64,000 bases of DNA, from contig MU053810.1 of NCBI GenBank assembly GCA_013239625.1, positions 4,868,071 to 4,932,070 of the forward strand, given 5' to 3'. The notes below the pieces were generated by a model. The model was not told the origin of the DNA and searched no databases. It saw only the letters and a program-made list of their open reading frames with translations. The position numbers and the translations under genes are program-made. Numbering within the stretch: the first letter of the stretch is position 1; each line of letters begins with the position of its first letter. The DNA is from Lama guanicoe (Eukaryota). Below, in pieces: positions 16,998-27,004 of the stretch.

Positions 16998-17040
16998 ATG
17001 CTTAACACCCCTAACAAGTATGCTTAACACCCCTAACAAG
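16998..17040. repeat. Tandem duplication, period 22 (atgcttaacacccctaacaag x2)
   Basis: Directly visible. Confidence 0.9.
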
Positions 17041-17045
17041 ACTTA

Positions 17046-17225
<180 letters not shown>

Positions 17226-17294: not shown

Positions 17295-17453
17295 CCTGGT
17301 CGTGGGACAGCTGACGTCGGATTAAAGGAGCTGACGTTGTGAGGCCGGGAGGGATGGTTGCTATGGAGGGGACCTGGGAGGTAGAGGCCGAGATGACAGC
17401 AGAAGCAGGGATGTGCGAAATATCATGATCGATGCTGGGGCTAGTTGGTTCAT
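17295..17453 (-). CDS. ARHGAP21: ARHGAP21 exon ~10 (159 nt), (D)[21 protein letters not shown]...[10 protein letters not shown]
   Basis: gacag acceptor, gtatgt donor; symmetric phase 1->1. Confidence 0.95.
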
Positions 17454-17964
17454 CTGTCAGATAAAATGAAAATAAATATTCAGATATTAAATGGCCTAAT
17501 TACTATTAACAATAACAGCAGAATCAATATTCAGTATTCATTACTGTAAAAACCAGATAAAGATAACACATCCACAGACATAACAATAAATGACATAGTT
17601 GGTCTGTTAAAAATCTCCTTATACAGTAATTCCAAATAATTCCAAGAATGTGATCTAAGAAATTAAATGAGTTGCTGCTTCTACCAAACAATTAATACCT
17701 TCACTAAACTGATAATCAAGACACCAAAGTTCACAGATATTCAGAACCTAGACCTATAAAAGCAGAATAAACACACACCACGGTAAAAGAATTACTTCCC
17801 CAATTTTAAGTGTATCACACATTATCATCTCAGGAAGCAAGCAAGGCTGAACTTTCAAGGCATCAGTTCCTAAAACCTACACCTCCCACCTCCCACCACA
17901 CAAGTAGCTCTTGTCCAAAAAGCTATAGCGTCTTCCAAAAGAACTTATTCATCATCAAGGCCAC

Positions 17965-18170
17965 TGGTACAGAGGGAATGTTTGTGTCCTCCCTAAATTC
18001 ATATGTTGAGAATTAATCCTCACTGTGATGCTATTAGGAGGCGAAGCCTTTGAGAGGTGATTAGGTCACAAGGATGGAGTCCTCATGAATGGGATTAGTG
18101 CCCTCACAAAAGAGGCCCCAGAGAGCTCCCCTGCCCCTTCTACTATGTCAGGACACAATGTGAGCCAGGA
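17965..18170 (+). mobile_element. MaLR LTR (MLT1A-like) 5' part
   Basis: aatgtttgtgtcctccctaaattcatatgttg...cctcatgaatgggattagtgccct. Confidence 0.75.
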
Positions 18171-19378
18171 GGCTGAGAATCATCTTCCACAACTCAGTGA
18201 AATTATCAGAATTTTGGGCATAGACTGTGGCCAAGTCATTTTGCTTTTCATTTCACATCTGTTAGGGAAGAGATTATTCTCCCCTTTCCCCAAATCACAG
18301 CATCATAATGAGGCATGTTAATGCTATAATATTCAATGATGGAGTAAATCACACATCACAAGGGGAGGAGTAAGTCTGTGTAAGTTGGAAGAAATGGTGA
18401 CTAATATGAAAGTATATATAAAAATACATAGTGCCCCAAAAGCATGTACAGATAAATCTCTTTTACTAGAAATAAGGAAACTGAACACACTGTTTCTGGT
18501 CCAGTCCTAGGAGAAGGGACATTCACTGCAAATGACCTAAAATCCAATCTATACCTCAAAGTACAGTTTATAAAAGGAGAATAAATAAATACTGTTAATG
18601 GAGTCTTCATCTTAAGAAGAAATTCAATTGGGACAAACATTTCTTTTCATTTGCCTTCTGAGATGCATACATTCAGTTAAAGCAGTTACATGAGGCTGAA
18701 TTTTATCTTCAATAAGCAAACAGAAGCCCTTCATAAGTAACAACTTAGTAATCTTTTGGCAACACCAGAGGTGGTATTATTTTTTTAAATCTAACTTAAA
18801 CCCAGTGAAATAAGGTCATCTTAAAAAACTGATCTCCCTAGGAAAATTTTATTTCACCTCATTAGTACTAGTTAGTAACCATGAGGTGAAAAGTTTTGAG
18901 GTTCATAAAAGTGGCATGCTCAAGAAAGTCCACTTTCATTAAAGAGGTATGGTTAGGAAAGAATGCTTAAAAAAAAATCAAGCTACTAATAAATTAACAT
19001 GTGCTTCTGATCTCCAAAACTGACCATCAAGTGACAGATCTCTAGACACTCACTGAAGCTTTTTCATTAATTATAAACAGAGCTTACGAGGTGATACACC
19101 TGTTAACAACTGGTAAGGGGGTGCCGTCACCTAGTTCAATGGTCCCAAAGTGTCATAGTAATAACCCAACTCATGATTGTAGTGAAAATTAGTGTTTTAA
19201 TTAAGACCAAGCTTCTTTCATAGGTCAGTAAACACGCATTTATATGAACGTCTGGCTATCTGAAAGGCATTTTGAGACTGCGTTATTTTGATAATCAAAA
19301 ATGCAGTGCTGTAACTTCCTAATAGATACAAAAGGTTAAGAAGTGGTAGAACTTTGAATAGAGACTTTTTCACCCTAC

Positions 19379-19520
19379 CATGCCCACATGGCCGCAAGTA
19401 CAGCGAGTGGCGCTGTAAACCTACTGCTGCTGTTGGAGGAGGTATTTGAAAGGCAGGTGGCGAAATTAGAGCAGGAGCAGGAATGTGCGACTGTGGTCCG
19501 GACTGGGACTGCAGGCTCGC
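19379..19520 (-). other. ARHGAP21: Candidate alternative coding exon (142 nt), paralogous to exon 10
   Basis: tttgctgcctgtag acceptor, ATG|gtaggg donor; open in phase 0->1: ASLQSQSGPQSHIPAPALISPPAFQIPPPTAAVGLQRHSLYLRPCGH. Confidence 0.65.
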
Positions 19521-19728
19521 CTACAGGCAGCAAACATCACAGCAGCACAAAGCTCTGTGTTTTAAAAAGGCAGGTGGAAGTATTGCTTTCCGACCTGCCG
19601 CAGGTCACAGTTACTTGGCTGAATTTCTGCAGCCTCTGTGGGTCAGACAAGTTAACGAGTGGTGATAAGATTTCGAGGGTTTGCGTGTATGTGAGAGACA
19701 CGTGTGTATGAAAGATGACCCCGCTTAC

Positions 19729-21096: not shown

Positions 21097-21340
21097 CTGT
21101 AGAGATGCTGTAATCCAGCTATAGCCTGTAAGCTTTAAAACTTCTAAATCGGTTTAAAATGGCAGTGCCAGCAAGGCTGCAAAGTCAGTTTCAGTTAGGC
21201 CAGTGCTAACTAAGTACACGCAAGCTGGCCAACCTTGCGGCGGGGAGGACAGAGAGGAGTACTAAAAACACGGCAAAAAACAGAGGAGAATGGATGTGAG
21301 AAGAACTCGATGTGAGTCATACGGCTGGTTTCTTTATATT
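21097..21340 (-). promoter_or_regulatory. Candidate internal promoter/first exon
   Basis: TATAAAG (21332-21338, minus), AP-1 site TGACTCA (21313-21319), locally raised GC/CpG, strong donor CAG|gtgagc at 21097/21096. Confidence 0.35.
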
Positions 21341-24324: not shown

Positions 24325-24478
24325 TGGGGTTTTTTTGTTTGTGTGTTTGTTTTGTTTTGGTAGGGGGAGGTAATTAAGTTTATTTATTAATCTATTTTTT
24401 GATGGAGGTACCAGGGATTGAACCCAGGACCTCATGCATGCTACGCATGTGCTCTACCACTGAGCTATATCTGCCCCC
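24325..24478 (-). mobile_element. tRNA-derived SINE (vic-1-like)
   Basis: gggattgaacccaggacctcatgcatgctacgcatgtgctctaccactgagctata. Confidence 0.85.
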
Positions 24479-25110
24479 TCAAGAAGTAACATGATCTGAT
24501 TTACATTTTTAAAACATCACACTGGCTGCCTTGTGGGCAGTACACCTTGGGGGGGGGCGGTGTGGGAGCAGACTAAAGCCTCAGTAAACATGATAGTTGT
24601 CCCAAATCAGGGCGCATACTTGTCATTTAAATAATTTCCACCCATCTACTCCAGGATTTATTCTAAGACAAAGTAATTTGACAATGAAGAGGTCTTTCCA
24701 TTGGGCCCAAGTTAAATTTACAAAGAACTAAGCTTTAGAAAGTAAAAAAGCACTAGTTAAACGAAAGTTGATTACTAGTGATTAAAACTGTTCAACCTGG
24801 CTTTTGATTCAGCTGAATCAACAACTAAGTATAATTTCGTTTGCCGAGTCTCTTGGCCCCAGAAGGTGGGAATTTGTTTCATCAAAATCAAAATTAAGAA
24901 TGGGTATCGAGTACATAAAATTAAAAAAAAATTAATATTAGAAATAATTTTTGAGAGTAAAAGCTTATGGCTCTGGTTTTAGCACAGGGTAGAAAATGCA
25001 CAAGTATTTTAAAATCACAGTGTAAAATTCCTGTGCCTGTTGAAATACTTTGCTGAAAAAGTTTTGTTCAATGTTCGACACATTAGCCAACGACTATGAA
25101 ATAAGCTCAC

Positions 25111-27004
25111 CTATAAATGGGATAGAAGCCAAGGAGTCACCGGGTGGGCTGGTACTCGAGGCCTTCCTTTCCTCCATCCTTTTTATGTGGACCTCACGGC
25201 GTGCATCATTGGGCAGCCAGCAAGTGGTGTCTGACCCCGTCTCCTGGTCGTTCACTGCCAAGATGTAGGACTGATGCCTCAAAGGCTGTGGTGTCTGGCG
25301 ACCAGATGGAGGCTTTTCTCTTAGGATGACAGTTTCTTTATTTTCTACAGCACTGGACTGCTGAACTTCAGCCTCCTGTAAATTTAAATCTTGATTCCTT
25401 TGAGTGATGGGTAACTCTGAATCTGGTGTGCCAGAACTCTCATTCATCAGAGGTGTGAGCTTAACAGAAGCTTCAGATAGAGAAGGGGGTTTCCCGGTGT
25501 CCACCTGGTGACCAGGAGCACTTTCAGCCCCTAACCATGTCTGCTGATTCAGTAGGCTGTTTTGATGCAAATGATTTACTGGTCTTTGGTCTTTAATAGA
25601 AATAAATGAGTTCTGGCTGGAGGGGGGTTTTGTGACATGCGTAGAAGGCGCTTTCAGAGAATTACTTCGGACTTTCACAAGAGGTGACCTGTCCTGTGAA
25701 ATACCTCGAGGCTGGGACATCCCACAAGTAGTCTGAAAATTTCGGTTTGCCTGCAGTGTCTTTAGATCTGGCGGAATTTTTTTAAACTGAGACACCGATC
25801 CCGCCCCTCGGCCACTCACCCGACGGTTGTCAGAATTCACAAGGCTTGGAGCCACCGTAAAATTGGAACCCCGAAAAGATTTGTGAATTTCTGGCTGCCT
25901 GGGTCTCTCATAAATACCTCGCCGATCGTCCTGTTCGGTAAACCCGCTCCACGTGTAAGTCTGCTTTCGGTCTCCATTTGAATCAGGGGGCGGACGTTCA
26001 GAATGGACGTTTTCTAAAGTTTCACCCTGTCCCTCGATATAATCCCACGAGCGAGTTCTGTGATTACTAAAACTAACAGATGGAGACGTCAGCGTTCCTT
26101 GAGATGCACTTCTCGGGCAATACTTCATTAACACGGAGTCCTCCAGCCTCTCCTGGGACACGCTGCGTTGCCGGATCTGAACGGACTGGGGCACTCGGTC
26201 CTGAGAGGTGCTCCGACGTCGTACCTGCAGAGCGGCGCGGTTCAGTACCACCTGGTTGTAGTCTGCTGTGCTCTGAGAGGCTGCTCTCAAACTGTCTAAC
26301 CTTTCCTGAATTGTCCGACAACCTATGTGCAACCGCCTGTTATCAATGTACTCTTTGTAAGTTTTATAGTTTTTCCAGTCTATGTGCTGATGGGAATTTG
26401 GAGAATAGTGATTGACAGATACAGAAGGCGAATCCACAGCTGGAGATCTATTGCTTGATGGTCCCTCTGCGTGTCCGCTGTAATTGCCAGATTTCAGTAA
26501 AATCCCAGAAGGTTCCAATGACCTGGAGCCGGCTGGATGAATTAGATGGGCAGTGGGAACTGACGACGGTGGTGATGTGGTTCTTGACGCCGTTTTTAAA
26601 GAGGTCTGCTCATTTCTGCCATACCTCACCTCTTCAGTTCTGTGCGAGGGAACCGTGTGGGTGTTCCTATTAGGTAACAAATCTACAACCTTCTCAGAAG
26701 GTACAATGACAGTCCTTACGCTTTCATTGCAGACACACACTGCTGTGTTTGACTTGGCCACATCTGGGGGTGATGGAGGCACTTGGATTTCCATCCGGTA
26801 GGCCCTGCTGGGCTGCGTCAGTACTGGTGGACTGGTTTGCTGTTTGCTGGAGGAGGAGTCTGGAGGAGCTGTTTCAGCGGGCTGCGCCATGGCTGAAGGG
26901 GCGGACGGAAGCCAGGGGTAGCAGATCGGTGGGGGCTCGGGTATGTTGCGGGCATTGCCGCTGTAGGCTTCATTGCCTTTCAGGTAGGCATCTTGAGAAT
27001 ACGC
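25111..27004 (-). CDS. ARHGAP21: ARHGAP21 exon ~9 (1894 nt), [10 protein letters not shown]...DSLASIPFI
   Basis: Overlaps the 598-aa ORF 25094-26890; cgtag acceptor, gtgagc donor; phase 0->1. Confidence 0.97.

What the first reader, a model, noticed from the sequence alone, without database searches (positions are those of the whole stretch)
19379..19520. Diverged tandem duplicate of exon 10
Seen: the 142-nt candidate exon encodes SHIPAPALISPPAFQIP, aligning without gaps to [17 protein letters not shown] in exon 10 (17295-17453). Both exons end in phase 1 with a His near the junction. Similarity is clearest at the protein level, suggesting an old exon duplication kept under coding constraint. 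Established: tandem exon duplication is the usual origin of mutually exclusive exons.
Basis: partly seen in the sequence, partly recalled or inferred. Interest (0 to 1): 0.75.

Follow-up and report, generated by a model that had tools for sequence, protein, structure and literature searches.

The report
Decayed exon copy, intact in marsupials
An intron of the signalling gene ARHGAP21 in a llama-like mammal holds a frame-broken copy of the neighbouring exon; a likely equivalent copy is intact and predicted to be an optional coding exon in Australian marsupials, so this is likely an ordinary fossil of an old exon duplication, not a working either-or exon pair.

Summary
The duplication is real; the proposed coding, mutually exclusive role is not supported. 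The gene is ARHGAP21 of a Vicugna/Lama-like camelid. The 142-nt segment is homologous to exon 10 end to end (91 of 138 aligned bases; 0 of 5000 shuffles reach the DNA score), with AG and GT at the matching places. It has lost 17 nt in several frameshifting indels. The upstream exon ends in phase 1, so the SHIP frame is never entered, and inclusion meets a stop one codon past the exon. An intact 53-residue duplicate sits at the same position in automated models of six Australian marsupial genera (14 of 48 marsupial proteins, always together with exon 10) and in 0 of 278 placental or unnamed proteins. Shared residues and a tree (support 91/92) group the camelid copy with it. Best reading: one pre-therian-split duplication, kept as an additive cassette in marsupials, decayed in camelids. 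A regulated poison exon is not excluded; no spliced read was seen, but the RNA test was weak.

The parts
25111..27004 (-).
   Evidence: 628 of 630 residues identical to Vicugna pacos ARHGAP21, 620-621 to Camelus; junction 25111->17453 reproduces the protein
19379..19520 (-). Decayed duplicate of exon 10, 142 nt, net loss 17 nt, several frameshifts
   Evidence: stop one codon past it when included after the large exon
19440..19490 (-).
   Evidence: 36 of 51 bases identical to exon 10; 16 of 17 second positions
19521..19540 (-). Acceptor at the position homologous to exon 10's; middling strength
   Evidence: rank 44 of 458 AG sites in the intron with a matrix made from 19 real sites of the window
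19373..19378 (-). Donor GTAGGG at the position homologous to exon 10's; fair strength
   Evidence: rank 7 of 402 GT sites in the intron
17295..17453 (-). Exon 10, 159 nt, phase 1-1, parent of the duplicate; encodes part of the domain-free linker before the PH domain
   Evidence: Pfam finds PDZ at 98-161, PH at 938-1042, RhoGAP at 1166-1314 and nothing at 812-864
17047..17149 (-). Next exon (exon 11), phase-1 start
21097..21125 (-). 29-nt stretch ending in a strong donor; would restore the frame if spliced in front of the duplicate (arithmetic only, untested)
   Evidence: donor rank 2 of 402, acceptor rank 283 of 458; joined form has no stop

Best explanation
This is a frame-broken copy of ARHGAP21 exon 10, likely the remnant of one tandem exon duplication older than the marsupial-placental split, and it is likely skipped in camelids. 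Shown: end-to-end homology with matching splice dinucleotides; frameshifting indels; a premature stop on inclusion; an ORF broken between close relatives; an intact counterpart in marsupial gene models. Inferred: because exon 10 is symmetric (phase 1-1, 159 nt), the new copy could be added without disturbing the frame; marsupials kept it as an optional cassette that lengthens the linker before the PH domain by 53 residues, with the RRQLS serine replaced by proline; the placental line kept it under coding constraint for a while (codon-position bias) and then lost it, before the split between this camelid and the relative seen. Any residual inclusion would be removed by nonsense-mediated decay.
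For: Homology and indels. Stop at the first codon past the segment whether exon 10 or exon 11 follows. Intact duplicate in 14 of 48 marsupial proteins from six genera, 0 of 278 placental or unnamed, 0 of 10 sauropsid. Camelid copy shares Leu19, Pro49, Cys50 with the marsupial duplicate; 270 exon-10 sequences have Val19 throughout and Ser49/His50 in 269; neutral decay of an independent copy gave all three in 12-39 of 100000 simulations; tree support 90.9/92. All six marsupial duplicates outscore exon 10 of the same species against the camelid DNA (66-93 vs 54-57).
Against: No raw RNA reads of the species covered the segment (0 reads in X15), and contigs drop rare forms, so skipping is not shown. 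Both splice dinucleotides survive and the donor ranks 7 of 402. The segment keeps CpGs (8 in 300 nt, obs/exp 0.45; many intron tiles 0-0.3, though several others reach 0.45-0.65). Exon 10 of alpaca and alligator score 71 against the camelid DNA, above three of the six marsupial duplicates; Pro2 and Ile14 match exon 10, not the marsupial copy; the tree used 29 residues and both branches are long. Marsupial isoforms are automated models whose read support was not seen. No placental DNA outside camelids was available.
Confidence: 0.7

Rival explanations
1. The duplicate was turned into a regulated poison exon in placentals: included at some level, it shifts the frame and sends ARHGAP21 mRNA to decay.
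For: AG and GT kept at homologous positions; donor rank 7 of 402; stop on inclusion at 142 nt; the relative's 143-nt form is also not a multiple of three.
Confidence: 0.13
2. The segment is a non-coding exon of a shorter transcript from an internal promoter, whose first exon ends at the strong donor at 21097.
For: Donor at 21097 ranks 2 of 402 with no good acceptor before it; mild CpG retention near 21100 and 19300.
Against: No protein among those fetched starts with a new N-terminus spliced to exon 10; neither ATG near the segment's end is in frame with exon 10; no RNA evidence.
Confidence: 0.06
3. The camelid copy and the marsupial cassette arose from two independent duplications of exon 10.
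For: Pro2 and Ile14 of the camelid copy match exon 10; no duplicate is annotated in the listed opossum or Dromiciops isoforms; symmetric exons can duplicate repeatedly (established).
Against: Shared Leu19, Pro49, Cys50 (simulation 12-39 of 100000; 4 of 8 diagnostic sites in 355-1115 of 100000); tree groups them apart from all therian exon 10 sequences; same side of exon 10.
Confidence: 0.06
4. The segment still codes in this species, either behind a 29-nt upstream microexon or as a 42-51-nt exon from an internal acceptor.
For: Both arrangements are open and in frame by arithmetic; the 42-nt form stays open in the relative (read by hand).
Against: The relative has a stop and frameshift in the long frame and its insertion breaks the 45-51-nt forms; the needed acceptors rank 283 and 136 of 458; no such peptide in 15 camelid cluster members or two database searches; part of the 3' frame is not the ancestral one.
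Confidence: 0.03
5. One reading: a coding exon spliced mutually exclusively with exon 10.
For: Homology and adjacency; exon 10 is skipped in 7 placental isoforms, so it is not strictly constitutive.
Against: Wrong entry phase, stop on substitution; those 7 isoforms put nothing in its place; marsupial models join both exons in 14 of 14 cases; 1925-nt intron, both GT-AG.
Confidence: 0.02

Closest known systems
Automated RefSeq ARHGAP21 isoforms of Australian marsupials with a 53-residue insert (e.g. XP_068942421.1 Petaurus, XP_072507836.1 Notamacropus, XP_051817138.1 Antechinus, XP_036614808.1 Trichosurus, XP_074049113.1 Macrotis, XP_027697373.1 Vombatus)
   Same: Duplicate of exon 10 between the large exon and exon 10, same terminal Pro-Cys-x-His, shared Leu19.
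   Different: Marsupial copy is full length and in frame (83% mean identity among six, against 95% for their exon 10s); the camelid copy is 17 nt shorter with frameshifts.
Tandem exon duplication with unannotated intronic copies (Ivanov and Pervouchine 2022, PMC9013439; first quarter read)
   Same: An annotated exon with a homologous copy in the adjacent intron of the same gene, found by DNA likeness.
   Different: Here the copy is frame-broken in one mammal lineage and additive in another; their pair tables were not seen.
Mutually exclusive homologous exons (Hatje et al. 2017, PMC5740500; Martinez Gomez et al. 2021, PMC8373072)
   Same: Origin by tandem duplication, neighbouring position, sequence likeness.
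   Different: Frame and length criteria fail; both exons are joined in marsupial models; no ARHGAP gene in the supplements searched.
Duplicate-derived stop-containing exons such as SCN8A exon 18N (mentioned in PMC5740500 passage; duplicate origin recalled; PMC3401437 is retracted, listing only)
   Same: A homologous neighbour exon whose inclusion ends translation.
   Different: 18N is demonstrably spliced and regulated; neither inclusion nor conservation is shown here.

Membership tests
Tandem exon duplication | Significant homology to an exon of the same gene, same strand, adjacent intron | tested here: met
Tandem exon duplication | Copy boundaries match the parent exon's splice sites | tested here: met
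   global alignment begins and ends at AG and GT in both
Mutually exclusive exons (criteria of PMC5740500) | Sequence similarity to the neighbouring exon | tested here: met
Mutually exclusive exons (criteria of PMC5740500) | Same reading frame; length differs by a multiple of three | tested here: not met
   142 vs 159 nt; stop on substitution; criteria
Mutually exclusive exons (criteria of PMC5740500) | No transcripts joining the two exons | tested here: not met
   14 of 14 marsupial models with the duplicate also hold exon 10; automated models, reads not seen; not tested in camelids
Mutually exclusive exons (criteria of PMC5740500) | Bridging junction reads for each exon | tested here: inconclusive
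   no joints or spliced loose ends in three contig sets; 0 raw reads in the fourth run
Mutually exclusive exons (criteria of PMC5740500) | A mechanism of exclusion (donor-branch point under 50 nt, U2/U12 mismatch, competing RNA structure) | tested here: inconclusive
   1925-nt GT-AG intron; branch point not mapped; none of the 25 longest of 53 inverted repeats covers the segment or its splice sites
Poison (NMD-coupled) exon | Inclusion creates a premature stop well upstream of later junctions | tested here: met
Poison (NMD-coupled) exon | Included in RNA | tested here: inconclusive
Poison (NMD-coupled) exon | Exon and flanks conserved above neutral rate | tested here: inconclusive
   one close comparison, no sign of constraint (6 of 142 vs 6 of 259); no distant placental DNA available
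Poison (NMD-coupled) exon | Inclusion rises when NMD is blocked | not testable with these tools
   needs an experiment or matched RNA-seq

The most novel reading that the evidence does not exclude
One ancestral exon duplicate took two working fates: a protein-lengthening cassette in marsupials and, after losing its frame, a regulated poison exon that tunes ARHGAP21 dosage in placentals, giving a dated natural example of a coding duplicate converted into an NMD switch.
Probability: 0.12. Interest if true: 0.55.

Novelty: new member of a known kind. Interest (0 to 1): 0.25.

Why it matters
Modestly. It is a clean, datable case of an exon duplicate kept in one mammal lineage and decayed in another, in a conserved RhoGAP. 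It also shows that a duplicated symmetric exon can become an additive cassette instead of an either-or pair. The marsupial exon is already in automated annotation; its link to a placental relic was not found in the searches made. It would matter more only if placentals still splice the relic to control gene dosage.

Tried and rejected
Search with the marsupial duplicate: 2 hits among 4 candidates, both marsupial. RNA: 4 of 20 listed runs were laid, on 19300-19700 only; the lay that would have spanned the neighbouring exons returned nothing, so direct junction counts 25111->19520, 19379->17453 and 19379->17149 remain open. Repeat search: no docker/selector-like pairing among the pairs shown. 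The primate 34-residue cassette from the same intron has no significant match in the window (best in-intron E 0.79). Joined translations used an exon end two bases off and were redone; the last translation was out of frame and is not used. Fourteen of 350 proteins lacked an anchor and were left out of the counts. Earlier-findings look-ups by place and sequence returned nothing. Literature: and supplement searches found no description of this duplicate; subscription journals, the full online MXE atlas and the Zenodo tables of PMC9013439 were not seen.

Full report
Setting. The window holds the middle of ARHGAP21 on the minus strand. The exon-10 peptide is 100% identical to camel ARHGAP21 entries, and the large upstream exon matches Vicugna pacos at 628 of 630 residues against 620-621 for Camelus and 551 for cattle and human. 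Nineteen junctions were rebuilt from the alpaca protein; the large exon ends at 25111 in phase 1, exon 10 is 17453-17295 (159 nt, phase 1-1) and the next exon starts at 17149. Exon 10 lies in the stretch without Pfam domains between PDZ and PH.

Observation. The 142-nt segment, its AG and GT, and the 17-residue gap-free match are as described. The match is not chance: 12 and 13 of 20000 protein shuffles and 0 of 5000 DNA shuffles (two schemes) reach it. DNA is the stronger signal. A global alignment covers both exons from acceptor to donor with 91 identities in 138 aligned bases and 25 gap positions. The flanking introns show no clear likeness. In the core, second codon positions match 16 of 17 against 20 of 34 for the other two (p 0.01), a trace of past coding constraint.

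Frame. Included after the large exon, the segment gives 46 unrelated residues and then a stop, whether exon 10 or exon 11 follows. By the established junction rule such a transcript would be a decay substrate, and its protein would lack the PH and RhoGAP domains.

A close relative. Contigs of three runs (X1, X5, X7) lie on 19300-19700 at 95-99% identity; from that level across intronic flanks I infer another camelid, but the call does not name it. X7 spans the stretch in one piece with 12 substitutions and 1 gap. Six substitutions and the 1-nt insertion fall in the 142 nt, six in the 259 flanking nt (p 0.36). The other indels are shared, so decay predates this split. No joint or spliced loose end was seen, but contigs drop rare forms, may be DNA, and the one raw-read run of the species gave 0 reads, which is no test.

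The marsupial counterpart. A sugar glider isoform scored far above all others with the exon-10 query because it holds two copies. Across 336 of 350 fetched proteins with both anchors, an intact 53-residue duplicate sits between the large exon and exon 10 in 14 of 48 marsupial proteins (Petaurus, Notamacropus, Antechinus, Trichosurus, Macrotis, Vombatus), in 0 of 278 placental or unnamed and 0 of 10 sauropsid proteins (sources). All 14 also hold exon 10, and the same species have isoforms without the duplicate, the pattern of an additive cassette. It is absent from the listed isoforms of Monodelphis, Gracilinanus, Dromiciops, Sarcophilus and Sminthopsis. These are automated models; large clusters were only sampled (15 listed each), and one search excluded proteins over 2000 residues, a gap partly closed. 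The six duplicates are 83% identical to each other on average against 95% for their exon 10s, without gaps: constrained, but more loosely, and only intact copies get annotated.

Orthology. At gap-free or end-anchored positions the camelid copy has Leu19, Ala24, Pro49 and Cys50 like the marsupial duplicate, and Pro2 and Ile14 like exon 10. Among 270 exon-10 sequences position 19 is always Val and 49/50 are Ser/His in 269. Simulated neutral decay of an independent copy produced Leu19+Pro49+Cys50 in 12-39 of 100000 runs and 4 of 8 diagnostic states in 355-1115 of 100000. A tree with X at breaks places the camelid copy with the marsupial duplicates (90.9/92), apart from a clade of therian exon 10s (89.6/91), rooted on three sauropsids. 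Only 29 residues of the copy were used and long branches can attract; frameshift-aware scores overlap (duplicates 66-93, exon 10s 54-71). One duplication before the therian split is the simplest reading. No monotreme was sampled.

Mechanism. Inferred: a symmetric exon in a flexible linker duplicated; inclusion cost nothing in frame; marsupials kept it as an optional 53-residue extension in which the basic motif RRQLS became RRQLP (that this serine is a phosphosite is recalled, not tested); placentals lost the constraint. Splice sites, scored with a matrix from the window's own 19 junctions, are fair (donor 7 of 402) and middling (acceptor 44 of 458), so low-level inclusion is possible.

Known work. 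PMC5740500: passages read; 10 supplement files hold no ARHGAP gene while the control CACNA1C is in 6. PMC8373072: supplement search only, no ARHGAP, control found 16 times. PMC9013439: first of four parts read. PMC11390650: passages and supplement rows; its two ARHGAP21 events are a 30-nt exon before the large exon and a 274-nt exon after the GAP domain, neither in this intron; the file was cut when stored. PMC11593658 and PMC10048575: passages, nothing on this intron. PMC12772994: abstract and outline only. Four searches listed no paper describing this duplicate. The earlier-findings index had no note on it.

Verdict. A real, old tandem exon duplicate; not coding and not mutually exclusive in this genome on present evidence; a new member of a known kind, interest 0.25.

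Noticed in passing
window 2921-2648, minus strand: A 274-nt AG-GT segment after the GAP domain whose first 47 codons read as a Cys-rich tail ending in a stop. Its length and spacing match the 274-nt human/mouse ARHGAP21 exon listed as a skipped exon in PMC11390650's table, where inclusion falls on KCl depolarisation (human 0.22 to 0.055, mouse hippocampus 0.40 to 0.17).
   Followed up: partly
window 28368-28339, minus strand: 30-nt in-frame cassette exon before the large exon; the human/mouse orthologue is activity-regulated in neurons.
   Followed up: partly
proteins P0194, P0195, P0197, P0199, P0201: Human and macaque models carry a different, unrelated 34-residue in-frame cassette in the same intron; no significant match in this window.
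   Followed up: partly
proteins P0267, P0268, P0278, P0281, P0291, P0299, P0334: Exon 10 itself is skipped in frame in armadillo, tamandua, sloth and bat models.
   Followed up: no
window 21097-21300, minus strand: Strong donor (rank 2 of 402) whose first nine intron bases equal those of the large exon's donor, with no good acceptor before it and mild CpG retention: possible internal first exon.
   Followed up: partly
window 24380-24480: Short tRNA-like SINE with an A-rich tail in the intron (seen; class recalled).
   Followed up: no
window 17960-18170: Stretch resembling an old MaLR-type LTR fragment between the duplicate and exon 10 (seen; resemblance recalled, not tested).
   Followed up: no
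window 17000-17040: Exact 19-nt tandem repeat, spacing 22, just inside the intron after exon 11.
   Followed up: no
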